Origin: a virus
Taxonomy: Duplodnaviria; Heunggongvirae; Uroviricota; Caudoviricetes
Reading direction: 5' to 3' (one strand)
IMG/VR virus record: IMGVR_UViG_3300027833_000012
Span: 48,257-112,256 of that record
Length of the DNA: 64,000 nt
The translations under genes were made by a program, and so were the position numbers. Shown here piece after piece: positions 6,711-36,868 of this stretch (position 1 is its first letter; the number at the start of each line of letters is the position of its first letter). The notes under the pieces were generated by a model. The model did no database searches. It was given only the letters and a program-made list of their open reading frames with translations, and was not told the origin of the DNA.

Positions 6711-7043
6711 TTATTTCTTACTTTCTTTTTTAATCCCTAAGTAAGTTCCAACAGAACCACCAATAATAAATGCTAATATCGGTAAAGGTTGACCCTCGGT
6801 TATTGAATTCATACCAAAGGTCATTGATACTAGCCATGTTATACCAATACCATTACCAGTTATTATCGTAGCTAACATTCTTCTTTCCGAAGTATATATA
6901 ACATTTAATGTTCTCAAATAAATAAAAATTATCTGAGATGCTAAAATAACCAGTGCTGAATAATATTGATTTTCAAGTATTTCAGTAAAATCTACCATGA
7001 TATTATATTTTTTATAAAATGTTATACAATCTCTTATTATCAA
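6711..7043 (-). CDS. small membrane protein
   Basis: 110 aa with three hydrophobic helices. Confidence 0.4.
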   Translation of the reverse strand: MIIRDCITFYKKYNIMVDFTEILENQYYSALVILASQIIFIYLRTLNVIYTSERRMLATIITGNGIGITWLVSMTFGMNSITEGQPLPILAFIIGGSVGTYLGIKKESKK

Positions 7044-8127
7044 GGTTAATCATGTAATCTTCTACTGTATCAACCTTACCATCTTTAAGGTTAAAGAATA
7101 AAGAAGAAAACTCCTTAACATCTCTTTTTGATGTTATTTCAAAAACTTTCATTGCGAACTTTTTTTGTTCACCCTTAGTTATGTTTTTAGGTTTGAATGT
7201 GGTTAATTCTTCCCAAACACTTATTAAGTCTAATGTCAGTTTATCGTAATTCACCTTAAGTCTAGTTATCTCTTCTTTTCTTTCTGGAAAAGCAACTACG
7301 AATTCATCAATTTCATTAGATTTAACTACCTCCATAATACTATGCTCACTAGTCTTAGATTTTAAGTGATGTACCGCAATATATTCTGGATTCTTTAATT
7401 TAACTCTATTAAAATTTGCATCGACAACAACATAACCTTCGTCATACCATGGCATATCTTTAAATGTATTAACTAAAACTCCAGCATTTTTAGCATTCAT
7501 ACTGTATGATTTAACTAATGGTACATTTAAAACTTTTGCAACATCCTTTAATGAATTATAGTCAATTTCCAACAACCCTGACAATCTTCTAGCTGCTAAT
7601 AGTGTTATAGAAGACTCCTTATGTGGTTTAACTACAATATTATAAGGTGTGGTCAATTCGAACATATATACAACACCCTTTGTTAAGGCATCTAAATTCA
7701 TATTTATTTTGTTAGCTGTTTCCCAAAATAAATCATTAAATGTTGTTCCGAATTTATTGTTAACCTCACCATCACCTTCAGCAGTACCAGTTGTTGCTGC
7801 AAACCAAGTTTCTTTATTCCAATCCCAATATAATTGAATCATAGAACCATCTAACTTCTCCAATACGTGTGCAGTATCCCAATCAACTTTAGAAGCTAAT
7901 GATTCTGCATTATTGAAGAATTTTTTAAAAGAAAGTGACATAACTTTCCAAGTTCCCTTTTCCAATATTAAACCTCTACACTCTTGAACTTCCGTTAAAG
8001 ACATGTCAGATTCAATCTGATTGTATTTAATAAGAACTTTATCACCATAGTCTTTAACTTTAAGTTTAAAAGCCTTTTCTACACTATCTATACCGTTTTT
8101 ATTTATGTATTCTACTATCTTTAACAT
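7012..8127 (-). CDS. RNA ligase 1 (T4 RnlA-like)
   Basis: Motif I EKLDGS at about residue 90 (T4 RnlA K99 KEDGSL); 371 aa versus 374 aa in T4 RnlA. Confidence 0.75.
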   Translation of the reverse strand: MLKIVEYINKNGIDSVEKAFKLKVKDYGDKVLIKYNQIESDMSLTEVQECRGLILEKGTWKVMSLSFKKFFNNAESLASKVDWDTAHVLEKLDGSMIQLYWDWNKETWFAATTGTAEGDGEVNNKFGTTFNDLFWETANKINMNLDALTKGVVYMFELTTPYNIVVKPHKESSITLLAARRLSGLLEIDYNSLKDVAKVLNVPLVKSYSMNAKNAGVLVNTFKDMPWYDEGYVVVDANFNRVKLKNPEYIAVHHLKSKTSEHSIMEVVKSNEIDEFVVAFPERKEEITRLKVNYDKLTLDLISVWEELTTFKPKNITKGEQKKFAMKVFEITSKRDVKEFSSLFFNLKDGKVDTVEDYMINLDNKRLYNIL

Positions 8128-8560: not shown

Positions 8561-9622
8561 TTATTTAAATGTTATTTCATTAACTATACCACTTAGGTTT
8601 ATATAATTCTCCAAATTAGACCAATTAGTGATGTCATTAGACATTACTGGTTTAGCACCCTCTTTAGAATTAATTGCTAAAGTTATGTGTGGTATTTCAT
8701 TATCACTATGATAACCTTCAACCATAACTGCAACAGCCATATCACTAACCCCCACTTTAGTTACCCTTATTGGTTTTATATCACCTAAATCAGACTTCAA
8801 ATCTTCTGACAATCCCTTACCGAAATTTATAGTCATATGTTTAGCTATCACCTCCCAACCTTCTGGTATGTAATGCTTAGTAGCTTCAATCAGTTTTTTT
8901 CTTGAGTTATCACCTAACTTAAGTGAAGCCCATTTTTTTCGTTTACCGTTCTTACTTTCCATTATCTTCTTAACTGTTAATTCACCAATACTAGCGTGTG
9001 ATGAAATCATTCTTTTAATTGTTTCTAAAGGTACATTATGTGTATTTCTATTAGCTAACTCTTCAGCTGTAAACCCATTTGTCCCAATATCAACTATTTT
9101 AATGTTACCTTCATCAAAACCCATCTTTAAAGCTGTCTCAACGTACATCTTAGAGTCTCTAGGTTTTATTCCAGTATTATCTATAATAACTGGAGAAACA
9201 CCCCTTAGCATGTCTGATTTAGCGTTTCTATAATTTTGTCCATGCATCTTTCCAAGTGCACTAAAGTCATTACTTTCTTTCATTTTCTTAAAGAAGTCGT
9301 TATAATCACCATTAGACTCAATCACTTCATCAGTAGAGTGAATTGTACCCTCATTAACTAAGCTTTTTGCTTTAGTACTCTTACCAGCACCTGGTTACGG
9401 TATCCCTCTCATGATGAATAACTCTTGAGAGGGACGTGTAATTTTTACGTTAATTGAATTGTATTCTACTAGAATATCTTTTATATTTTTCTTACCCATG
9501 TTTATTAATGAATCACAAACCTTTACATTATATGAGGAAAAAGAACCCCTAAAAAGGGTGTTGAATCCGACCCATTTAACTAATCTTCTATTTTTATATT
9601 TCATAATTATTATTTTATACAA
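8561..9622 (-). CDS. polynucleotide kinase - 2H cyclic phosphodiesterase fusion (Trl1-like healing module), interrupted by an in-frame TAA
   Basis: Upstream ORF ends ...LFIMRGIP then TAA (9395-9397), and the same frame continues PGAGKST... (P-loop kinase). The C-terminal half has two H-x-T-x motifs (HMTINF, HITLAI) of the 2H phosphoesterase (LigT/CPD) family. Deleting 6 nt (gtaacc) would restore a canonical Walker A RGIPGAGKST. Confidence 0.6.
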
Positions 9623-9658
9623 AGATACTAATAATAATTGGAAATATTATTATAAAAT

Positions 9659-10165
9659 CTAATTAATTTTTAAAAATCTAATGAAAAAGAAAATACTTAC
9701 ACAAAATAAACCTATAGATTCAGCTAAGAATAAGGTTATAACATTTAAGAATAATAAAGTTAGTGTAGTTAAGACTATGATGAATATACTTATTTTAGTT
9801 TGTTTAGAGAAAACCTTACTAAAATAAATCAATATAAATAAATTCTCCAGGAAAAATAAAATAGCAAACACATCATGAATATACTCACCCTCTTTTACTG
9901 GGAAGATAACAACACCTAACATTGAGATACCTAGGATAATGTTAAACCTTCTATTTTTATCTATTATACCGTCTAATATAAAGAAAATACTTATAAAACT
10001 TAAAGTCACAATATAAAACCAACACGCTTCTGAATAGATATATTTACTAACACTATCTAAAAATTCACCAGTAATTACTGGTAAAAATACAGGTAAAATA
10101 AAAAGCGTTATCGATAGAAATAATTCTACCTTGATAACGCTTTTTATAATGTTAATTTGGTTCAT
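9659..10165 (-). CDS. polytopic membrane protein
   Basis: 168 aa; 5-6 hydrophobic helices. Confidence 0.45.
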   Translation of the reverse strand: MNQINIIKSVIKVELFLSITLFILPVFLPVITGEFLDSVSKYIYSEACWFYIVTLSFISIFFILDGIIDKNRRFNIILGISMLGVVIFPVKEGEYIHDVFAILFFLENLFILIYFSKVFSKQTKISIFIIVLTTLTLLFLNVITLFLAESIGLFCVSIFFFIRFLKIN

Positions 10166-18786: not shown

Positions 18787-18793
18787 TTTTTTG

Positions 18794-18866
18794 AGACCCT
18801 ACTCAGATTCGAACTGAGACTGTAGCTTTCGTAGAGCTAAGTGCTTGTCCATTACACCATAGAGCC
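18794..18866 (-). tRNA. tRNA-Arg (anticodon ACG)
   Basis: rc folds GGCUCUA-UG-GUGU/ACAC... anticodon arm UAGCU-CUACGAA-AGCUA, T arm CUCAG-UUCGAAU-CUGAG, acceptor 3' UAGGGUC. Confidence 0.75.
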
Positions 18867-18870
18867 AATT

Positions 18871-18950
18871 TGTAGCGTAAGTCGGAATTGAACCGACCCA
18901 GCAAACCTTATGAGGGTAAGCCCTCCACCTTGGAGCTACGCAATTTTTGA
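18871..18950 (-). tRNA. tRNA-like gene, non-canonical
   Basis: Clear T arm GUCGG-UUCAAUU-CCGAC and a 6/7-bp acceptor (GCGUAGC/CUUACGC). The interior has a GAGGG-CUUA-CCCUC tetraloop hairpin instead of a 7-nt anticodon loop; about 67 nt only. Confidence 0.3.
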
Positions 18951-19020
18951 GACCCTACCCAGATTCGAACTGGGGCTATAACTTTAGAAGAGTTAGGTGC
19001 TTCCGCTACACCATAGAGCC
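18950..19020 (-). tRNA. tRNA-Arg (anticodon UCU)
   Basis: GGCUCUA-UG-GUGU-AGCGGA-AGCAC; anticodon arm UAACU-CUUCUAA-AGUUA; T arm CCCAG-UUCGAAU-CUGGG. Confidence 0.8.
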
Positions 19021-19023
19021 TTA

Positions 19024-19209
19024 TTATTTTTTATTATTTAACTTTTTTAATTGGGTGATTATCTCATTTAACATACCAAGAAGAGACCCGAATAAAAGTG
19101 CTAAAGATAGTTTATTATAAAATACCATTTCTGAAGGTATTAATATCACAAATGTAAGGGCACTGTAAATAAACCATTGAACTAAACCTTTATAATTATA
19201 TGTTTTCAT
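19024..19209 (-). CDS. small membrane protein
   Basis: 61 aa; two hydrophobic helices. Confidence 0.35.
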   Translation of the reverse strand: MKTYNYKGLVQWFIYSALTFVILIPSEMVFYNKLSLALLFGSLLGMLNEIITQLKKLNNKK

Positions 19210-19213
19210 AAGC

Positions 19214-19480
19214 TTAACCTCTAGTTTTTATTAAATCATTTAATTTTATAATATTTTTACTTACCCATTCATCTAACCCATATATTTGATAATCATCAAA
19301 ATTATATTCCATATGGTTATCATTACTTAAACCCTTAGACTCTAGTAACATATATTCTACACTAAATATATCATTAGCCTCAACAACAATATTATACTCG
19401 AAAAAATCTCCTTCACCACCGCCAGATAATATTACAACAAATTTTTTCATGTTATTACATATTAAAATTAGAACCTCCAT
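19214..19480 (-). CDS. hypothetical protein
   Basis: 88 aa. Confidence 0.4.
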   Translation of the reverse strand: MEVLILICNNMKKFVVILSGGGEGDFFEYNIVVEANDIFSVEYMLLESKGLSNDNHMEYNFDDYQIYGLDEWVSKNIIKLNDLIKTRG

Positions 19481-19544
19481 CCAGATTCGAACTGGAACTA
19501 AAACTTTAGAAGAGTTTTGTGCTTATCCATTACACCATGGAGGC
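19472..19544 (-). tRNA. tRNA-Arg (anticodon UCU), second copy
   Basis: GCCUCCA acceptor; anticodon arm AAACU-CUUCUAA-AGUUU; T arm UCCAG-UUCGAAU-CUGGA. Confidence 0.75.
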
Positions 19545-19552
19545 TTATATTG

Positions 19553-19630
19553 TGGTCCAGGTGAGACTCGAACTCACATGTGACCAAATTACGGTTTCAA
19601 CTGCTTATGAGGCAGAGCCGATACTGGACC
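19553..19630 (-). tRNA. tRNA-like gene with CAU (Met/Ile2-type) loop, non-canonical architecture
   Basis: Perfect 7-bp acceptor GGUCCAG/CUGGACC; T arm GUGAG-UUCGAGU-CUCAC. The CUGC-CUCAUAA-GCAG hairpin lies only 8 nt after the acceptor (no normal D arm), and 23 nt separate it from the T arm. Confidence 0.45.
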
Positions 19631-19638
19631 TTATTTTG

Positions 19639-19715
19639 TTGTGCGAAAGGGATTCGAACCCTTATTTCCAACCTTTACCTTAGTCACGCTTATCAGACGT
19701 GCTGGTTACCGCACA
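19639..19715 (-). tRNA. tRNA-like gene with GAU (Ile-type) loop, non-canonical architecture
   Basis: Acceptor UGUGCGG/UCGCACA; T arm AAGGG-UUCGAAU-CCCUU. The anticodon arm CACGU-CUGAUAA-GCGUG is almost identical to E. coli tRNA-Ile(GAU) but displaced toward the 5' end. The D-arm-equivalent sequence lies 3' of it (CCAG...UUGG pairing). Confidence 0.45.
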
Positions 19716-19785
19716 ATATTACACTTTTATATCACAAAGATACAACTAATAATTTAAATACACAAGTAATTTAAATATTATTTTG

Positions 19786-19857
19786 CGGACATGGAGAATT
19801 ACGATATCTCGACCCTTCGGTTAACAACCGAACGCTCTTCCTCTGAGCTACATGTCC
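19786..19857 (-). tRNA. tRNA-Asn (anticodon GUU), copy 1
   Basis: GGACAUG-UA-GCUC-AGAGGAA-GAGC-G-UUCGG-UUGUUAA-CCGAA...; acceptor 3' CAUGUCC; T loop variant AUCGUAA. Confidence 0.7.
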
Positions 19858-19868
19858 TAATTATTTTG

Positions 19869-19940
19869 CGGACATGGAGAATTACGATATCTCGACCCTT
19901 CGGTTAACAACCGAACGCTCTTCCTCTGAGCTACATGTCC
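19869..19940 (-). tRNA. tRNA-Asn (anticodon GUU), copy 2
   Basis: Identical to copy 1. Confidence 0.7.
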
Positions 19941-19948
19941 TAATTTAG

Positions 19949-20034
19949 TAGAAAGACTGGGACTCGAACCCAGGGACCCCTTTTGAGGGCCTACGGTTTA
20001 GCAAACCGCTGCATTACCACTCTGCCACCTTTCC
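19949..20034 (-). tRNA. tRNA-Ser (anticodon GCU), type II
   Basis: GGAAAGG acceptor; D arm GCA/UGC with GG loop; anticodon arm GCGGU-UUGCUAA-ACCGU; long variable arm; T arm CUGGG-UUCGAGU-CCCAG. Confidence 0.8.
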
Positions 20035-20039
20035 AATTG

Positions 20040-20157
20040 TGTAAGAAATAGGATTCGAACCTATGAATGATTACCTTCTCTGATAATCTCAGTATAACTA
20101 ATGTTAACATACCATTTTCAAGTACCCTGGTGCTTTCAACCACTCAGCCATTCTTAC
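20040..20157 (-). tRNA. 118-nt tRNA-like gene (Ser/Leu-type D arm) with about 30 nt of extra internal sequence
   Basis: Perfect acceptor GUAAGAA/UUCUUAC; D arm GCU-GAGUGGUUGAA-AGC; T arm AUAGG-UUCGAAU-CCUAU; no canonical anticodon arm located; contains the palindrome AUGUUAACAU. Confidence 0.4.
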
Positions 20158-20179
20158 ATATCTTTATGAATATAATGTA

Positions 20180-20464
20180 CTAATTATTTTTCTTATATTC
20201 ATCAAAAAACCAACTATAATATTTTTTTGACTCCATAAAACCATAATCAGTTATATTAACATCTTCTTGATATATATTTTCTGTATGATTACAAAATGGA
20301 CAATCTTTAACAATAATCCCATCTAAATGTGCGTCAAACCCAGAATGAAACCCCATATTAACTAAAATTTCTTTATTACACTTATTACATTCACATACAC
20401 CAATTATAGAAGCTAATGGGTCATCTTTTAGCACTTCTTTAACATTTTTAACTAACTTTTCCAT
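20180..20464 (-). CDS. Cys-rich small protein (zinc-binding?) inside the tRNA island
   Basis: 94 aa; CECNKCNK ... CPFCNH. Confidence 0.45.
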   Translation of the reverse strand: MEKLVKNVKEVLKDDPLASIIGVCECNKCNKEILVNMGFHSGFDAHLDGIIVKDCPFCNHTENIYQEDVNITDYGFMESKKYYSWFFDEYKKNN

Positions 20465-20490
20465 ATTACAAAATTTTTACATTACTATGG

Positions 20491-20577
20491 TAGAGAGAAT
20501 GGGACTCGAACCCACACAGCGAATGAACGCTGAACAACTTTCCAAGCTGCTGCAATACCAATTATGCTTACCTCTCT
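20491..20577 (-). tRNA. tRNA-Ser (anticodon GGA), type II
   Basis: Acceptor AGAGAGG/UCUCUCU; anticodon arm GCAGC-UUGGAAA-GUUGU; variable arm CAGCG-UUCAUU-CGCUG; T arm GUGGG-UUCGAGU-CCCAU. Confidence 0.7.
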
Positions 20578-20696
20578 ATTTACGAGTTCTTAGTTAATAC
20601 CGAAGTATATTCTGGTGTTACTCGCCTTATATGTCACCTACTATTATTCGGTCACATACGTCACTAACCCTAAGATTAGTTGTTTATCGTACAAAA

Positions 20697-20774
20697 AGTC
20701 AAGGTAGTAGATAGAGTAATCGAAACCCATGGTGTAACCCATCCCTGGGTTTCAAGCCCAGTTTGTCACCTTGA
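20697..20774 (+). ncRNA. tRNA-like element with aberrant topology
   Basis: 7-bp GUCAAGG...CCUUGAC closing stem and T-arm-like CUGGG-UUUCAAG-CCCAG, with 7 extra nt between T arm and acceptor. Long internal hairpin GAAACCCA...UGGGUUUC. Strand uncertain. Confidence 0.25.
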
Positions 20775-20792
20775 CGGTACCTACTAATTTTG

Positions 20793-20885
20793 CGGAAGAA
20801 GTGGGATTCGAACCCACACGGCTTTTTACACCCCTTCGTTTTCAAGACGAGCACTGTTACCCAGAATCTTTCAGTTTATTCTTCC
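20793..20885 (-). tRNA. tRNA-Ser (anticodon UGA), type II with enlarged D loop
   Basis: Acceptor GGAAGAA/UUCUUCC; anticodon arm UCGU-CUUGAAA-ACGA; long variable arm; T arm GUGGG-UUCGAAU-CCCAC. Confidence 0.6.
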
Positions 20886-20898
20886 TTATTTTATTTCG

Positions 20899-20970
20899 CA
20901 CGTCATCCAAGATTCGAACTCGGAGCCTTCGGGTTGGAGCCGAAAATGTTAGCCGTTACACCAATGACGT
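20899..20970 (-). tRNA. tRNA-Trp (anticodon CCA)
   Basis: ACGUCAU-UG-GUGU-AACGGCUA-ACAU-U-UUCGG-CUCCAAC-CCGAA-GGCU-CCGAG-UUCGAAU-CUUGG-AUGACGU. Confidence 0.8.
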
Positions 20971-21049
20971 GTGTTTTAATTTTAATATGTCAATGAACTT
21001 TCTTTCATAAACCCCGACTGACTGTACAGTCGAGGTAAATATCATTATG

Positions 21050-21123
21050 TCAACCGTATGGGAATCGAACCCATGTTACTCGTTTCACAGACGAGCCACC
21101 TTTCCAATTTGGTGCAACGGAGG
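21050..21123 (-). tRNA. tRNA-His-like (anticodon GUG), imperfect acceptor
   Basis: D arm CACC/GGUG; anticodon arm CUCGU-CUGUGAA-ACGAG; T arm AUGGG-UUCGAUU-CCCAU. The acceptor CCUCCGU/ACGGUUG has two pyrimidine-pyrimidine mismatches. Confidence 0.5.
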
Positions 21124-21168
21124 GATGTTGAGTGAGGTTTTTACATTCACTTTATTTTGGGTGTTACC

Positions 21169-21241
21169 ACGGTATCGAGCCGAGTTCTTCAGATTCACAG
21201 TCTGACGCTTCACCTTAAAGCTTGAAACACCATATTTAATT
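21169..21241 (-). tRNA. second GUG-loop tRNA-like gene with degenerate T arm
   Basis: Anticodon arm UCAGA-CUGUGAA-UCUGA at canonical 27-43; acceptor 6/7; T loop CUCGAUA with a mismatched stem. Confidence 0.4.
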
Positions 21242-21765
21242 TTTTGGGAAAACTACCCATTTACTTTTCTTTTCTTTTTCGTTGATGTCTTTTAAAGTTT
21301 TATCAATTACTTGTTTTAATTTATTTTCCCATTCTTTTTGGGTTGATTTTCCTTTATTATACATCTTTAATTTTCTTCTAATTCAACAAAGATAATCATC
21401 TTACCTTTTTCTTTTTTAAATTTAAGTGGACCATTATAACCAGTTGTATCTGCTATTGTTCTGTACTTATCAACAATTAGGTCAAAATCTTTCATAAAGT
21501 TTTTAACTTTTTCACTCCCTAACTTTCTAACTAAAATTCCCATACTTATTAAAATTAAAAAACCCGAAACTATTTCTAGAATCGGGTTTTGTTTATATTA
21601 TTTATATGAATCTTACTTCATACTGTAAACATTTAGCATACCCGCTTCTCTTGAAGAATTACGTCTCCAATTACTGCTCGAAATCATATGTATGTTAATT
21701 GTTCTCATTTTACTTTTTTTATAAACACTTTTTTAGTGTTGTTATTAATATATATGACAAAGATA

Positions 21766-22197
21766 CTAAAAGTTATCTGATTTGTCAAGTTTTTTTGTAA
21801 AAACTTTTTCGTTTTGTACTAATTTTTTTATAAACGCCTCATTTTCAGCGTTTTTTAAATTACTACCATCATATTCATTTTCTAAATATTCTGTAATAGT
21901 GTTAGTTATTTCTTTTATAAGTTTAAAATTCTTAATTGATTTACTCTTGTACCATTGTGGGAAAAAAGTAGTTTTCATATCGAATAAACTTTCTGTTGAG
22001 TCAGCTTCAACTTCTTCAACTTTCATTCTAAAGTATTTTTCATCAAATCTAATTGATGCTACCATATTTTTATTATTATATTTAAATGGTATAACTTTGA
22101 ATAATTTTTTATTATCATCTAAGAATAAGTGTTTTGATGTTTTATTAACATATTCATTCATTCTTTTTGTCCAGTTTTCTAATTTTATATTTTCCAT
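21766..22197 (-). CDS. hypothetical protein
   Basis: 143 aa; the overlapping plus-strand ORF 21782..22213 is judged spurious. Confidence 0.45.
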   Translation of the reverse strand: MENIKLENWTKRMNEYVNKTSKHLFLDDNKKLFKVIPFKYNNKNMVASIRFDEKYFRMKVEEVEADSTESLFDMKTTFFPQWYKSKSIKNFKLIKEITNTITEYLENEYDGSNLKNAENEAFIKKLVQNEKVFTKKLDKSDNF

Positions 22198-22310
22198 AAT
22201 TTCTTTTTTTTAATTTATTAATTTTAAGTATAAAAGCTCAAGGCTTTAACATTGCTGTTTGGAAAATATACTTTATGGACCTCTGGTGTAAACCTAAGTG
22301 TTTTTCATAG

Positions 22311-22672
22311 TTACTGATTTTTATTAGTTAAATTATTTGTATTACCTAGTAGTGGTAATGAACTTACTAACTTTCTAGTCAATTCTGTAGGTTCAAATGC
22401 TACTGCTGTTATTTGGTCCCCTATATCGGGTTCTCTAAATACTGTATGGTTTATTCCCTTTACGTCAGCTTTTTCTATTAATTTTTCTAAGGATGCTTCA
22501 TCCTTTGCTGTTAGGAATATTAAATAATTCGATGTTGTATTCCAATCTTTAGCGTCTATCGGATTTTCTAATATGTAATCTGCGACTGCATGTCCACTTT
22601 GGACTGCTTGATATCCGATTGGAAGGTCTTTTCTTGTAACTACTGTTAACTTTTTGTTTTTAATCTAAGTCA
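22311..22672 (-). CDS. peptidyl-tRNA hydrolase, PTH2 family (not in ORF track; in-frame TAG at codon 3)
   Basis: ATG(22672-22670) ACT TAG(22666-22664), then an uninterrupted frame IKNKKLTVVTRKDLPIGYQAVQSGHAVADY...TAVAFEP matching the PTH2 core (VVRTDL, GKxAAQxxHA). The frame has no internal Met, so a Met-dependent ORF caller missed it. Confidence 0.6.
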
Positions 22673-22704
22673 TAACTTCTTAATTTATTTATTATTAATT
22701 TATC

Positions 22705-22781
22705 TGGTGCGAATAGTGGGAATCGAACCCACTACATCCGAGTTTAGAAGTCGGTACCCCAACCATTAGGGTCTTACTCGC
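22705..22781 (-). tRNA. candidate amber-suppressor tRNA (anticodon CUA) with encoded CCA
   Basis: GCGAGUA acceptor pairs UAUUCGC, then A and CCA. D arm CCC/GGG with G18G19. Anticodon stem CCGA/UCGG plus C-C closing pair and 7-nt loop UUCUAAA: U33, CUA at 34-36, A37 A38, as in supF-type loops. T arm GUGGG-UUCGAUU-CCCAC. Confidence 0.55.
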
Positions 22782-36500: not shown

Positions 36501-36868
36501 TGTGGAGATGGAGGGGCTCGAACCCTCGTATCAACCTAAGCTTAAAAAGCTTTCTACATGTTTAGGTTAACATTTTTCTTATGTTCCAAAAATAGTTAAT
36601 TTTTTTATGGATACAAAAAACAAAATCCACTAACCATTTTTTTTAACATCACAAGGTTTAGTTTCGTGATGGTGGGCGAACCCACTACAATCATTTAGGC
36701 GAATGCTACCTCTCCTGATTCAACTTCTACAGAAGCGTTTTCAAGGAAATTTACGTCAATGTCAAACGAGTTGTCATCTAAAAAAATCGATAGGTTATTT
36801 AAGTGTTTCCATCTAACACTACATGCTTACAAGAAAAGTCATTAAGTGAGCAATTCCAAGTCATCCCC
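36501..36868 (-). ncRNA. ssrA: tmRNA-like (ssrA-like) RNA, about 368 nt
   Basis: 5' GGGGAUG pairs with 3' CAUCUCC (G3:U70 wobble, A73). T arm GAGGG-UUCGAGC-CCCUC. 5' segment ACUUGGAAUUGC resembles the tmRNA D-loop analogue. Internal tag-like frame ...ASVEVESGEVAFA-UAA (36736->36695). No ORF longer than 30 aa. Own promoter and terminator. Embedded UUCG tetraloop hairpin GUGGG-UUCG-CCCAC. Confidence 0.6.

What the first reader, a model, noticed from the sequence alone, without database searches (positions are those of the whole stretch)
8561..9622. Kinase-CPD (Trl1-like healing) gene split by a single in-frame TAA inside its Walker A motif
Architecture:
- The ORF 9398-9622 ends ...ELFIMRGIP-TAA, and the same frame continues PGAGKSTKAKSL.
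- The C-terminal half carries the two H-x-T-x motifs (HMTINF, HITLAI) of the 2H cyclic phosphodiesterase family.
- A P-loop polynucleotide kinase fused to a 2H CPD is the healing half of fungal/plant tRNA ligase Trl1.
- The sealing half is present nearby as a separate Rnl1-like ligase gene (7012..8127).

The interruption:
- The interruption is exactly 6 nt (gtaacc).
- Removing it gives a perfect Walker A, RGIPGAGKST.
- So it is in-frame, contains a stop, and lies at the catalytic P-loop.

Possible explanations:
- Ochre readthrough or suppression.
- A recent inactivating insertion.
- Expression of a CPD-only product from the downstream GTG.
- An assembly artefact.
Basis: seen in the sequence. 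Interest (0 to 1): 0.75.

Follow-up and report, generated by a model that had tools for sequence, protein, structure and literature searches.

The report
Mobile stop-containing gap in kinase P-loop
The six extra bases with a stop codon in this phage RNA-repair kinase gene are real and belong to a small mobile cassette, spread by a homing endonuclease, that resembles phage T4's gene 60 "ribosome bypass" element and may be the first natural short "stop-hop".

Summary
On the minus strand a kinase-CPD gene (ATG 9499 to stop 8561) reads ...ATG AGA GGG ATA CCG TAA CCA GGT GCT GGT AAG AGT ACT. Removing 6 nt gives GIPGAGKST, as in hundreds of uninterrupted homologues. It is not an assembly artefact, because at least five independent assemblies carry it.

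It is also not a private mutation. Thirty-four distinct, diverged alleles carry a 5-, 6- or 9-nt insert at exactly this position, and all 34 start with a stop codon. These alleles are scattered across the gene tree next to intact alleles.

At least 14 alleles have a NUMOD3 + PD-(D/E)xK homing endonuclease gene directly upstream, and 4 keep remnants of one. Often a truncated native 5' stub ending inside the P-loop lies further upstream. The element brings its own start codon and replacement 5' coding region. It also brings a GC-rich, covarying RNA hairpin that ends 1 nt before the CCG and is absent from intact alleles.

This is the architecture of the T4 endonuclease/gene 60 bypass cassette, in a different gene, with a different endonuclease and a minimal gap. 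The window holds an endonuclease-less copy.

My best reading is that the gap protects the DNA from the endonuclease and ribosomes hop from CCG over TAA to CCA. The hop is inferred, not shown. The main rival is a selfish scar that killed the kinase.

The parts
8561..9499 (-). Whole kinase-CPD ('healing') gene including the 6-nt gap: ATG 9499-9497, stop 8563-8561
   Evidence: Searches give the sequence and frame. Homologues of 312-315 aa align from MGKKN... to the end. Domain support comes from Pfam AAA_33 + tRNA_lig_CPD, T4 Pnk 1LY1, and Foldseek hits to 6U05 and CNPase.
9398..9499 (-). Cassette-type 5' coding segment ('homR'): own ATG plus 34 codons, MGKKNIKDILVEYNSINVKITRPSQELFIMRGIP, ending at the take-off codon
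   Evidence: The signature ...RPSQxLxIMRG(V/I)P with its near-invariant nucleotide sequence is shared by all interrupted alleles and not by intact ones. In L005 versus the intact L016, only this segment differs.
9402..9435 (-). RNA hairpin: 5' arm GUCCCUCUCA (9435-9426) and 3' arm UGAGAGGGAU (9411-9402), ending 1 nt before the CCG
   Evidence: The fold gives -23.9 kcal/mol with z = -4.1. Across 33 alleles, 97% of cells are paired, against 38-66% when the partner is slid. Two pairs covary, and the window itself carries the U-A version of a pair that is C-G elsewhere. MFE is -21.8 +/- 2.0 in interrupted alleles versus -3.3 +/- 2.2 in intact ones.
9398..9400 (-). Proposed take-off codon CCG (Pro), a rare codon
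   Evidence: CCG makes up 2% of Pro codons in the window. Among alleles found by protein similarity rather than by a CCG-containing DNA pattern, 10 of 11 use CCG and L178 uses CCA. None of the 50 intact alleles uses CCG.
9395..9397 (-). In-frame stop TAA, followed by C
   Evidence: A stop (TAA, TAG or TGA) directly follows the take-off codon in 34 of 34 distinct interrupted alleles, and C follows the stop in 33 of 34.
9392..9394 (-). Proposed landing codon CCA (Pro). With the stop it forms the 6-nt gap 9392-9397
   Evidence: Sequence. Gap variants in relatives are listed. Removing the gap restores GIPGAGKST.
9374..9391 (-). Remainder of Walker A: GGT GCT GGT AAG AGT ACT = GAGKST (the resume codon is GGT 9391-9389)
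   Evidence: G, GK, S and T are invariant in homologues.
8681..8839 (-). 2H phosphoesterase core with the two H-x-T motifs (HMT 8839-8831, HIT 8689-8681)
   Evidence: These columns are invariant in alignments A1 and A3. The model matches the CNPase fold.
7012..8127 (-). Rnl1-type RNA ligase gene (the sealing partner). It is context only, not part of the cassette
   Evidence: Pfam RNA_lig_T4_1 at 9.2e-14 and PHROG 562 at 2e-44.

Best explanation
**What it is**
The 6 nt are the 'coding gap' of a small mobile cassette that targets the P-loop-coding DNA of phage kinase-CPD genes.

**The complete element, as seen in relatives**
- It consists of a free-standing homing endonuclease gene (NUMOD3 DNA-binding repeats plus a TnsA/PD-(D/E)xK nuclease domain).
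- This is followed by an element-borne start codon and a replacement copy of the first 23-45 codons of the kinase gene.
- That replacement segment contains a GC-rich hairpin built from rare codons.
- It ends in CCG, a stop codon and 2-6 further bases.

**How it spreads and what the window holds**
- The element inserts into intact genes at the P-loop and leaves a truncated native 5' stub behind.
- The endonuclease gene is later lost. The window carries such an endonuclease-less, stub-less copy.

**Inferred function, step 1 (by analogy with T4 gene 60)**
The gap splits the endonuclease's recognition site, so carriers are immune to cutting.

**Inferred function, step 2**
- Two extra residues in a Walker A loop would probably ruin the kinase, so the gap is not translated.
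- With peptidyl-tRNA(Pro) on the rare CCG in the P site and a poorly terminating stop (TAA-C) in the A site, the tRNA unpairs.
- Re-folding of the 5' hairpin behind the ribosome helps pull the mRNA forward.
- The tRNA re-pairs with CCA 6 nt downstream and decoding resumes at GGT. This yields the normal GIPGAGKST protein.

**Status of each claim**
- Shown: the anatomy, the mobility, the endonuclease linkage and the hairpin conservation.
- Inferred: the immunity function and the ribosomal hop.

**How the confidence splits**
- That this is an endonuclease-linked mobile cassette with a conserved hairpin, stop and gap: above 0.9.
- That the gap is skipped by the ribosome: about 0.6. The overall figure reflects this weaker step.
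For: **Same site in many alleles**
- 34 distinct alleles carry a 5-, 6- or 9-nt insert at the identical position. The variants are TAACCA, TAACCT, TAACTA, TAGCTA, TAGCTT, TGACCA, TGACA, TAACA, TGACG and TAAATATCA.
- Removing the insert always restores G(V/I)PGxGKST.

**Mobility**
- Interrupted alleles are scattered over the tree of the C-terminal 275 residues, each beside intact alleles.
- L005 is 100% identical to intact L016 on both sides of a replaced 5' patch. That patch still contains the last ~28 codons of the endonuclease gene.

**Endonuclease linkage**
- A full-length endonuclease gene ends 65-115 nt before the CCG in 14 alleles. It is cut by the contig end in 2 more, and remnants survive in 4. 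Its domains were identified.
- Native stubs ending ...MRGIPGA|...GIPGSG| or ...GIP| lie upstream of it in 9 loci, and also in L131.

**Hairpin**
- It is specific to gap-bearing alleles (-21.8 versus -3.3 kcal/mol).
- It covaries, with C-G<->U-A through a U.G intermediate and A-U<->G-C at 12 versus 11 alleles.
- It is kept in endonuclease-less alleles (-20.9).
- A scan for the hairpin alone recovers exactly the gap-bearing loci (19 of 19).
- It is built from codons that are very rare here (CGC 0%, CCC 2%, CCG 2%) while preserving the native residues R-P-x-Q...M-R-G-V/I-P.

**Stop codon**
- A stop is kept in all alleles, and all three stop codons are used. C follows the stop in 33 of 34.

**Coding integrity**
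- The element-borne 5' ORF keeps an ATG and stays open in all alleles, although the endonucleases have diverged to 54-73% identity.
- Downstream ORFs are full length in 20 of 23 complete cases.

**Matched codons**
- The window (CCG/CCA) and its closest relative L178 (CCA/CCA) have matched Pro codons flanking the stop.

**Precedent**
- The T4 endonuclease + homR + bypass cassette has the same plan: repeated insertion at one site, recent insertions, and endonuclease loss with the gap retained (PMC5009743).
- Short 'stop-hops' work in synthetic constructs.
Against: **No direct evidence**
- There is no protein or RNA evidence. The hop is inferred.

**Landing codons often do not match**
- Landing triplets are not cognate in many alleles: CUA/CUU in 15, ACA/ACG in 11 and UCA in 1.
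- The 5-nt class needs a +5 move with only 2 of 3 possible pairs. Yet that class has spread widely, as expected if frame did not matter.

**Signs of decay in some lineages**
- Three interrupted lineages have damaged or rearranged downstream parts: the L097 group lacks the CPD, L139 is split between kinase and CPD, and L142 is rearranged.

**Recency could explain intact ORFs**
- Most acquisitions look recent, so intact downstream ORFs could reflect lack of time to decay.
- Asymmetric nucleotide conservation next to the site is partly what homing co-conversion predicts.

**The hairpin may not act as proposed**
- It lies 5' of the site, not 3' as classic stimulators do, and could serve the endonuclease transcript or act at the DNA level.

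**Other limits**
- The genome uses no Shine-Dalgarno sequences (1 of 53 genes), so an RF2-like role for GAGGGG is doubtful.
- Within-lineage polymorphism is too sparse to test selection (L004: 2 synonymous, 1 non-synonymous).
- 22 of the 33 pattern-derived alleles were found with a pattern that fixed ATGAGAGGGRTRCCG. Invariance of those 15 nt is therefore unbiased only for the 11 alleles found by protein similarity.
Confidence: 0.6

Rival explanations
1. **Selfish scar, dead kinase.** The cassette and gap are the cleavage-resistant allele that travels with the homing endonuclease, but nothing repairs it at the translation level. Ribosomes terminate at TAA. The kinase is lost, and at most a P-loop-less or CPD-only product is made from the GTG at 9325 or a later ATG. 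Drive by the endonuclease, together with the dispensability of RNA repair, lets the broken allele persist.
For: - Most acquisitions look recent (L005 versus L016 are 100% identical in the flanks), so intact ORFs need not mean selection.
- Gap length varies, and 11 alleles are out of frame.
- Three lineages show further loss or rearrangement downstream.
- Landing triplets are often non-cognate.
- Gene callers annotate only the 254-aa downstream ORF.
- No closer intact allele of the window lineage exists in the protein collection searched.
Against: - The element-borne 5' ORF keeps its start codon, an open frame and native-like residues in all 34 alleles, although the linked endonucleases are only 54-73% identical. 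At 28.5% GC a neutral 15-codon stretch stays open with a probability of about 0.27 (my estimate from base composition).
- The hairpin is overlaid on conserved codons, covaries and persists in endonuclease-less alleles.
- The stop is never lost, although 7 of 9 single changes of TAA give sense codons.
- The window allele has lost both stub and endonuclease and is fixed across several ocean samples without any further lesion.
Confidence: 0.22
2. **Another translational rescue.** Options are stop-codon readthrough by a suppressor or near-cognate tRNA in the 6- and 9-nt alleles (giving GIPxPGAGKST), a -1/+2 frameshift, or termination-reinitiation at the overlapping GUG in the CCG-UGA-CA alleles.
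For: - The window encodes a tRNA with anticodon CUA, which could read the UAG variants.
- C after the stop is a weak termination context (established knowledge, from memory: Poole, Brown and Tate 1995).
- In the TGACA alleles a GTG overlaps the stop (CC GTG A), and gene callers start the downstream protein there (P0115, VTGSGKST).
Against: - No single such mechanism serves all classes. Readthrough fails for the 5-nt gaps, and reinitiation has no start codon in the 6-nt gaps.
- A CUA anticodon does not read the window's UAA.
- TAA ends 46 of 53 genes, and no other ORF in the window is split by an in-frame stop.
- Readthrough would put two extra residues inside the Walker A loop. Reinitiation would remove strand beta-1.
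Confidence: 0.1
3. **Removal at the nucleic-acid level.** Either the gap marks the edge of a group I intron or other spliced or edited RNA segment, or it is deleted in a fraction of genomes by slippage between the ACC...ACC repeats.
For: - In endonuclease-bearing loci, a native 5' stub ending in GIPGA lies about 1 kb upstream. This is formally the layout of exon 1 - intron with ORF - exon 2.
- The 6 nt are flanked by ACC repeats.
Against: - Rfam finds no intron at gathering thresholds or at E <= 1 in L047, L077 and L087.
- The window, L005 and others have no stub to splice to.
- The supposed intron 3' part is a well-kept coding copy of the gene's N-terminus with its own ATG.
- No gap-free copy of the window lineage is seen in any assembly.
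Confidence: 0.04
4. **Sequencing or assembly artefact.**
For: None beyond prior plausibility for a single 6-nt anomaly.
Against: - The identical sequence is present in L001-L004 (100%, 100%, 99.87% and 99.82% identity to the window) from different samples and assemblers.
- It is also present on a Tara scaffold seen in 5 samples and on a 187-kb JGI contig.
- Homologous gaps occur in 33 other alleles.
Confidence: 0.005

Closest known systems
Phage T4 gene 60 bypass cassette with its homing endonuclease (called MobA in Manning & Atkins, bioRxiv 10.1101/2022.08.31.505936; reviewed in Atkins et al. 2016, PMC5009743, whose reference B158 I take from memory to be Bonocora et al. 2011)
   Same: - An endonuclease gene is followed by an element-encoded N-terminal segment, which includes a region homologous to the replaced host sequence, and then by an untranslated gap.
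- The gap begins with a stop codon right after the take-off codon.
- The element ends at or just after the landing codon.
- It inserts repeatedly and recently at one highly conserved site of one gene, in diverged phages that have near-identical uninterrupted relatives.
- The endonuclease is progressively lost while the gap is kept.
- The gap is thought to block self-cleavage without altering a conserved protein motif.
[quoted passage not shown]
   Different: - The target gene differs: an RNA-repair kinase-CPD, not topoisomerase.
- The endonuclease family differs: NUMOD3 + PD-(D/E)xK, not HNH.
- The gap is 5-9 nt, not 50 nt, so there is no take-off stem-loop or mini-SD inside it.
- The take-off codon is Pro CCG, not Gly GGA.
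- The hairpin abuts the take-off codon (1 nt away, against 9 nt in T4) and is strongly conserved, whereas the T4 5' stem-loop is not conserved between clades.
- The element replaces the gene's 5' end and start codon; it does not split the gene into two functional polypeptides.
- The host apparently does not use Shine-Dalgarno sequences.
- Bypassing is proven for T4 and only inferred here.
Synthetic 'stop-hops' in E. coli (Weiss, Dunn, Atkins & Gesteland 1987, as cited in PMC5009743 and 10.1101/2024.12.09.627546)
   Same: Matched codons flank a stop, so that 9 nt specify one amino acid. The window has CCG UAA CCA and L178 has CCA UAA CCA. +5 and +6 forward moves were described there.
   Different: Those were engineered, unstimulated, low-efficiency events. 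The 2016 review states that no natural in-frame stop-hop is known. Here the site is natural, conserved across many alleles, and accompanied by a dedicated hairpin.
prfB (RF2) programmed +1 frameshift site AGG GGG UAU CUU UGA C (from memory)
   Same: A G-rich element a few nt 5' of the P-site codon, a stop in the A site, and C after the stop: AGA GGG GUA CCG UGA/UAA C.
   Different: A +1 shift would not restore the frame here. The G-run is the 3' arm of a hairpin with a conserved complementary 5' arm. The genome shows no Shine-Dalgarno usage.
Trl1 / CNPase-type kinase-CPD healing enzymes and T4 Pnkp
   Same: A P-loop polynucleotide kinase domain followed by a 2H phosphoesterase with two H-x-T motifs. 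The best structural match is PDB 6U05, deposited as 'Crystal Structure of Fungal RNA Kinase'. The gene sits next to an Rnl1-type ligase.
   Different: The ligase is a separate gene and not an N-terminal domain as in Trl1. The 3' healing domain is a CPD, not the T4 Pnkp phosphatase. Activities were not tested.
Intron- or intein-borne and free-standing PD-(D/E)xK / Vsr-like homing endonucleases of phages
   Same: NUMOD-type DNA-binding repeats plus a PD-(D/E)xK-type nuclease. The target is the most conserved motif of a phage enzyme gene. Flanks are co-converted.
   Different: No intron or intein accompanies it. Host-gene integrity would be restored, if at all, by a translational gap.

Membership tests
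Endonuclease-linked translational bypass cassette (T4 gene 60 type) | A short non-coding insert interrupts an ORF at a conserved site, and deleting it restores the conserved protein | tested here: met
   Removing 5, 6 or 9 nt restores G(V/I)PGxGKST in all 34 alleles.
Endonuclease-linked translational bypass cassette (T4 gene 60 type) | A homing endonuclease gene lies immediately 5' of the gap-bearing segment | tested here: met
   Met in relatives: 14 full-length, 2 cut by the contig end and 4 remnants. It is absent from the window. The T4-type family also has members that lost the endonuclease but kept the gap.
Endonuclease-linked translational bypass cassette (T4 gene 60 type) | An element-encoded replacement of the displaced host coding region (homR), with repeated independent insertion at one site | tested here: met
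   Patch replacement in L005 versus L016. Native stubs upstream of the endonuclease. Interrupted alleles are non-monophyletic.
Endonuclease-linked translational bypass cassette (T4 gene 60 type) | A stop or hungry codon lies directly 3' of the take-off codon | tested here: met
   34 of 34 alleles, using TAA, TAG or TGA.
Endonuclease-linked translational bypass cassette (T4 gene 60 type) | [quoted passage not shown] | tested here: inconclusive
   Met in the window (CCG/CCA), L178 (CCA/CCA), and the TAACCT and TGACCA alleles. In the rest the landing triplet is only near-cognate: CUA, CUU, UCA, ACA or ACG.
Endonuclease-linked translational bypass cassette (T4 gene 60 type) | A take-off stem-loop and mini-SD lie inside the gap; sequence homology to the T4 cassette or its HNH endonuclease | tested here: not met
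   The gap is only 5-9 nt. The endonuclease is NUMOD3 + TnsA-like, not HNH. The target gene is different. So this is an analogue, not a member of the T4 element family.
Endonuclease-linked translational bypass cassette (T4 gene 60 type) | One polypeptide is made from the two ORFs, and the gap confers resistance to the endonuclease | not testable with these tools
   Needs protein mass spectrometry or reporters, and in vitro cleavage assays.
Kinase-CPD RNA healing enzyme (Trl1 / CNPase type) | Walker A GxxxxGK(S/T) in a polynucleotide-kinase fold | tested here: met
   Met only after conceptual removal of the gap. Pfam AAA_33 at 1.2e-8. T4 Pnk 1LY1 at 2e-4. Foldseek 6U05 at 3e-6.
Kinase-CPD RNA healing enzyme (Trl1 / CNPase type) | A 2H phosphoesterase fold with two H-x-T/S motifs | tested here: met
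   HMT and HIT are invariant in the alignments. Foldseek hits to the CNPase catalytic domain at about 1e-4. Pfam tRNA_lig_CPD scores 22.5 bits against a cut-off of 23.
Kinase-CPD RNA healing enzyme (Trl1 / CNPase type) | A covalently fused ligase domain (Trl1 proper) | tested here: not met
   The ligase is a separate gene at 7012-8127, with a 119-aa ORF in between.
Stop-codon reassignment or programmed readthrough | The same stop codon occurs in-frame in other genes, or a cognate suppressor tRNA is present, and the frame is preserved in all relatives | tested here: not met
   TAA terminates 46 of 53 genes. No other stop-split ORF occurs in the window. The only suppressor-like tRNA has anticodon CUA. 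Eleven alleles have frame-changing 5-nt gaps.
Group I intron or intein carrying a homing endonuclease | A self-splicing RNA fold or Hint domains flank the endonuclease | tested here: not met
   No Rfam intron hit at gathering thresholds or at E <= 1. Pfam finds only NUMOD3 and TnsA-like domains. The window has no upstream exon.
Ordinary pseudogene | Further disabling lesions, and loss of constraint on both halves | tested here: inconclusive
   The window has no further lesion, and both parts are open in 34 of 34 (5') and 20 of 23 (3') alleles. However, acquisitions may be recent, and polymorphism is too sparse for dN/dS.

The most novel reading that the evidence does not exclude
This is a natural, programmed short-range translational bypass: a 5-9 nt 'stop-hop' by peptidyl-tRNA(Pro). 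It is stimulated by a hairpin that re-forms behind the ribosome. It is packaged with a homing endonuclease as a portable self-immunity module that can sit inside the Walker A motif of an enzyme without changing the protein. That would make it a second, independently evolved family of endonuclease-plus-coding-gap elements after T4 gene 60, operating in a host that does not use Shine-Dalgarno pairing.
Probability: 0.55. Interest if true: 0.9.

Novelty: new variant of a known kind. Interest (0 to 1): 0.8.

Why it matters
**Why recoding specialists would care**
- Programmed bypassing has essentially one well-studied bacterial or phage example, T4 gene 60 and its homologues. The 2016 review of recoding states that natural in-frame stop-hops are not known.
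- A second, unrelated endonuclease-linked gap cassette would show that 'insert a gap, let the ribosome skip it' is a general solution for selfish elements that must break their own target site inside an indispensable motif.
- This cassette is minimal: a hairpin, a rare Pro codon, a stop and 2-6 nt.
- It offers a very small, naturally varied test bed of 10 gap variants with hairpin covariation. This allows study of take-off, landing and the proposed forward drive from mRNA pairing at the ribosome exit, possibly without Shine-Dalgarno help.

**Practical consequence for annotation**
- Gene callers split or truncate these genes (254- or 278-aa 'hypothetical proteins'). RNA-repair capacity of large aquatic phages is therefore under-annotated.

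**If the rival is right**
- The locus would still document an endonuclease that drives a broken allele of an RNA-repair gene through phage populations.

Tried and rejected
- **Nucleotide search in cultured phages.** Megablast of the locus against 50,697 phage records gave no match.
- **Protein searches in cultured phages.** Protein-level searches gave only distant kinase or ligase hits, so no cultured relative or host was found.
- **Shine-Dalgarno-like stimulator (RF2 analogy).** I considered it because of AGAGGGG. I set it aside because the genome shows no SD usage (1 of 53 genes) and the G-run is the hairpin's 3' arm.
- **Monophyly of interrupted alleles (one old event, vertical descent).** Rejected by the tree and by the L005/L016 comparison.
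- **dN/dS after interruption.** Within-lineage variants are too few. L003's three differences sit at a low-coverage contig end, and L004 has 2 synonymous and 1 non-synonymous change. Window versus L178 (69% aa) cannot be shown to descend from an interrupted ancestor, because L178 is almost as close to intact P0006.
- **L157 versus intact L179 as a second before/after pair.** Their flanks are not syntenic, so the element boundaries could not be read.
- **Group I intron.** No Rfam hit.
- **Endonuclease structure.** No sequence match in the PDB.
- **Take-off codons other than CCG in IMG/VR.** None found. One CCA case (L178) came from a protein hit.
- **Hairpin pattern in reference genomes.** This gave only a chance match to a terminator in Rummeliibacillus.
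- **Second copy of the gene's 5' end, or an endonuclease homologue, in the window.** None found. The weak NUMOD-like hits at 52.7 and 63.1 kb lie in unrelated ORFs.
- **Landing-site hairpin.** The small 5-bp hairpin at the landing site (9383-9395) follows from Pro-Gly-x-Gly codons and is also possible in intact alleles, so I do not count it as a signal.
Full report
**1. The observation**

On the minus strand the window reads ...GAG TTA TTC ATC ATG AGA GGG ATA CCG TAA CCA GGT GCT GGT AAG AGT ACT..., i.e. ELFIMRGIP*PGAGKST. The TAA is at 9397-9395.

The frame is open from an ATG at 9499 to the stop at 8563-8561. It contains HMTINF and HITLAI.

A search of 5.8 billion proteins finds about 800 relatives. 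The 120 best listed are mostly 300-320 aa and 52-63% identical, from aquatic metagenomes and on contigs of up to 350 kb. Those examined read ...ELI(V/I)MRGIPGAGKST without interruption.

Deleting 6 nt therefore restores exactly the family's Walker A. The homologues' N-termini align with MGKKNIKDIL..., so the real start is 9499 and not 9622.

**2. What the gene is**

- Pfam gives AAA_33 and, just under threshold, the fungal tRNA-ligase CPD domain.
- A family profile hits T4 polynucleotide kinase in the PDB.
- An AlphaFold model (pLDDT 88.9) matches PDB 6U05 ('Crystal Structure of Fungal RNA Kinase') best, then CNPase 2H domains.
- The gene at 7012-8127 is an Rnl1-type ligase.

**3. Not an artefact, not private**

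- The same interrupted sequence is in four other assemblies that could be read (L001-L004, 99.8-100% identical).
- It is also in a fifth assembly known from its gene geometry and on a 187-kb JGI contig.
- No uninterrupted allele closer than 63% appears among the 120 best hits listed from the protein collection.

When I read the DNA of 80 homologous loci from IMG/VR, ten further distinct alleles turned out to be interrupted at the very same position. Pattern scans of IMG/VR and of JGI metagenomes left the codon after CCG free and allowed 0-12 inserted bases. One protein-derived contig (L178) was added. Together these raise the count to 34 distinct alleles.

The gap variants are:

| Gap length | Variant (number of alleles) |
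|---|---|
| 6 nt | TAACCA (5, including the window and L178), TAACCT (1), TAACTA (8), TAGCTA (5), TAGCTT (2), TGACCA (1) |
| 5 nt | TGACA (9), TAACA (1), TGACG (1) |
| 9 nt | TAAATATCA (1) |

Every one begins with a stop codon. C follows the stop in 33 of 34. Removing the insert always restores G(V/I)PGxGKST. No allele in this sequence context has a sense codon there, or no insert.

**4. It is a mobile cassette**

A tree of the 275 residues downstream of the site does not group the interrupted alleles. Each sits next to intact alleles.

L005 (interrupted) and L016 (intact) are 100% identical upstream and downstream. They differ only in a patch running from about codon 5 to the P-loop.

In 14 alleles a 281-285-aa ORF ends 65-115 nt before the CCG. 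It carries NUMOD3 motifs and a TnsA-like PD-(D/E)xK nuclease domain, so it is a homing-endonuclease-type protein. In 2 more alleles it runs off the contig. In 4, L005 among them, only its last 16-73 codons remain.

Upstream of the endonuclease gene, nine loci (and L131) still carry the native 5' end of the kinase gene. It is cut off inside the P-loop (...MRGIPGA|...GIPGSG|...GIP|).

The element therefore inserts into the gene at the P-loop. It brings its own ATG and a replacement N-terminal coding segment. It rejoins the host gene within about 9 nt after the gap.

The window has neither endonuclease nor stub. It carries a late, endonuclease-less form, as do about ten other alleles.

**5. A dedicated RNA hairpin**

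All interrupted alleles share CGC CCC TCT CAG nnn TTR nnn ATC ATG AGA GGG GTR CCG. The two halves are complementary. A stem of 10-14 bp ends 1 nt before the CCG.

- In the window the arms are 9435-9426 and 9411-9402, giving -23.9 kcal/mol for the 71-nt stretch folded, with z = -4.1.
- Across 33 alleles 97% of cells pair, against 38-66% when the partner is slid.
- Two pairs covary. One is C-G<->U-A with a U.G intermediate, and the window has the U-A form. The other is A-U<->G-C, split 12 to 11.
- RNAalifold finds the stem on its own.
- The equivalent 38 nt of 50 intact alleles fold at -3.3 +/- 2.2 kcal/mol, against -21.8 +/- 2.0 for the interrupted ones.
- Endonuclease-less alleles keep the hairpin (-20.9).
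- A scan for the hairpin alone returns exactly the 19 gap-bearing IMG/VR loci.
- The stem is made of codons that are almost unused in this 28.5% GC genome (CGC 0%, CCC 2%, CCG 2%). It still encodes the residues conserved in the family (R-P-x-Q...M-R-G-V/I-P).

Caveat: 22 of the 33 pattern-derived alleles were found with a pattern that fixes the 3' arm and the CCG. The 5' arm, the loop, the stop and the gap were never part of a pattern. The 11 alleles found by protein similarity show the same features.

**6. Comparison with what is known**

This is the ground plan of the T4 gene 60 element as described by Manning and Atkins (bioRxiv 10.1101/2022.08.31.505936) and in the review PMC5009743.

Shared features:
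- An endonuclease gene.
- An element-encoded N-terminal segment with a region homologous to the displaced host sequence.
- A gap that starts with a stop after the take-off codon.
- An element end at or just past the landing codon.
- Repeated recent insertion at one invariant motif.
- Loss of the endonuclease with retention of the gap.

In T4 the gap blocks self-cleavage and is skipped by the ribosome.

Differences here:
- The target gene and the endonuclease family.
- The gap length (5-9 nt against 50 nt).
- No structure inside the gap.
- Replacement of the gene's start.
- A genome without Shine-Dalgarno usage (1 of 53 genes).

Short stop-hops with matched codons flanking a stop are known only from synthetic constructs. 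The review states that no natural case is known. The window's CCG UAA CCA, and CCA UAA CCA in its closest relative L178, are exactly of that form.

**7. Most likely mechanism**

Shown:
- The anatomy, the mobility and the endonuclease linkage.
- The hairpin conservation and the stop conservation.

Inferred:
- (a) The gap makes the carrier's P-loop DNA uncuttable.
- (b) Peptidyl-tRNA(Pro) leaves the rare, wobble-read CCG while a weak stop (TAA-C) idles in the A site. Re-pairing of the hairpin arms as the 3' arm leaves the ribosome biases movement forward. The tRNA re-pairs at CCA and GGT is decoded next, giving the wild-type Walker A.

My strongest argument that something restores the protein concerns the element-borne 5' segment. 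In all 34 alleles it has kept a start codon, an open frame and the family's conserved residues, while also carrying the hairpin. Meanwhile the linked endonucleases have diverged to 54-73% identity. Homing does not refresh that segment, and a free 23-45-residue peptide has no evident use.

**8. What speaks against it**

- Many alleles have landing triplets that pair with a Pro anticodon only through G.U or with a mismatch (CUA, CUU, UCA, ACA).
- The 5-nt class needs a +5 move and has nevertheless spread to 11 alleles.
- Three lineages show further damage or rearrangement downstream.
- Most insertions look recent, so intact 3' parts prove little.
- The few polymorphisms in the window lineage do not allow a selection test.

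The main rival is therefore a selfish scar that has inactivated the kinase, possibly leaving a CPD-only product. I give it about 0.2. Readthrough, frameshift or reinitiation cannot each serve all gap classes (about 0.1 together). An intron is not supported. An artefact is excluded.

**9. Verdict**

The finding is real and much more interesting than a broken gene. It is an endonuclease-less copy of a previously undescribed homing-endonuclease-linked 'mini coding gap' cassette in the Walker A motif of a phage RNA-repair enzyme. I found no description of it in the literature searched.

I classify it as a new variant of a known kind (the T4 gene 60 paradigm). The bypass itself awaits experiment.

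Noticed in passing
window 22705-22781 (-), within the tRNA cluster 18793-22781: ARAGORN reports a tRNA with anticodon CUA (labelled tRNA-Pyl), i.e. an amber-suppressor-like tRNA, among 11 tRNA genes. TAG ends 5 of 53 long ORFs, and no ORF pair in the window is split by an in-frame TAG. It cannot read the TAA studied here, but it could matter for the TAG-gap alleles of related phages.
   Followed up: partly
window 36502-36868 (-): ARAGORN predicts a tmRNA gene with tag peptide DNSFDIDVNFLENASVEVESGEVAFA* in what looks like a large phage genome. A phage-borne tmRNA next to a candidate ribosome-stalling/bypass site is curious. I did not verify it with Rfam.
   Followed up: no
whole window: GC content is 28.5% and 51 of 53 long ORFs are on the minus strand. 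There is essentially no Shine-Dalgarno motif upstream of starts (1 of 53); leaders are A/T-rich. TAA is the stop in 46 of 53. This suggests a host with SD-independent initiation, for example Bacteroidota (inference only). No cultured phage relative was found; the best ligase hit is an uncultured 484-kb phage.
   Followed up: partly
L178:85-100 (contig of P0095): The window's closest relative (69% aa downstream) has ATA CCA TAA CCA GGT. [quoted passage not shown] My CCG-based scans would miss such alleles, so the family is probably larger than 34.
   Followed up: partly
L139 (about 480 nt downstream of its P-loop), the L097/L116 group, and L142: Among interrupted relatives, L139 has kinase and CPD as two ORFs, with a stop plus a new ATG in the linker. 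The L097 group (9 contigs, one of 315 kb) has a kinase-only ORF with no CPD after it. L142 carries a second partial gene copy and what looks like a second endonuclease remnant.
   Followed up: partly
L005:984-1370 and L087:61-450: A 128-129-aa ORF with weak GIY-YIG similarity (E about 1e-3) lies a few genes upstream of the kinase gene in two interrupted loci. It may be a second, different homing endonuclease in the neighbourhood.
   Followed up: no
window 9383-9395 (-): A small 5-bp hairpin, ACCAG-GUG-CUGGU, covers the landing codon and the first Walker A codons. The complementarity follows from the CCA GGT NCT GGT codons and is also possible in intact alleles. The near-palindrome CCAGGTNCTGG may be part of the endonuclease's target.
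   Followed up: no
window 9659-10165 (-) and 9500-9658: The upstream neighbour is a DUF7103 membrane protein. The same neighbour precedes the interrupted gene in L157, whose 3' part is 92% identical to a different, intact allele (P0016). The 160-nt spacer contains a terminator-like hairpin (ACCCTTTTTAGGGGT followed by Ts). The in-frame 'extension' of the 75-aa ORF up to 9622 is probably non-coding.
   Followed up: partly
L006-L008 (P0063): These intact alleles have the cassette-like peptide ...QPSQILYIMRGVP, but AT-rich synonymous codons and no hairpin (AGC CAA CCA TCA CAA ... AGA GGT GTA CCA GGT). They may be former carriers that lost the gap, after which the hairpin decayed. I did not test this.
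   Followed up: no
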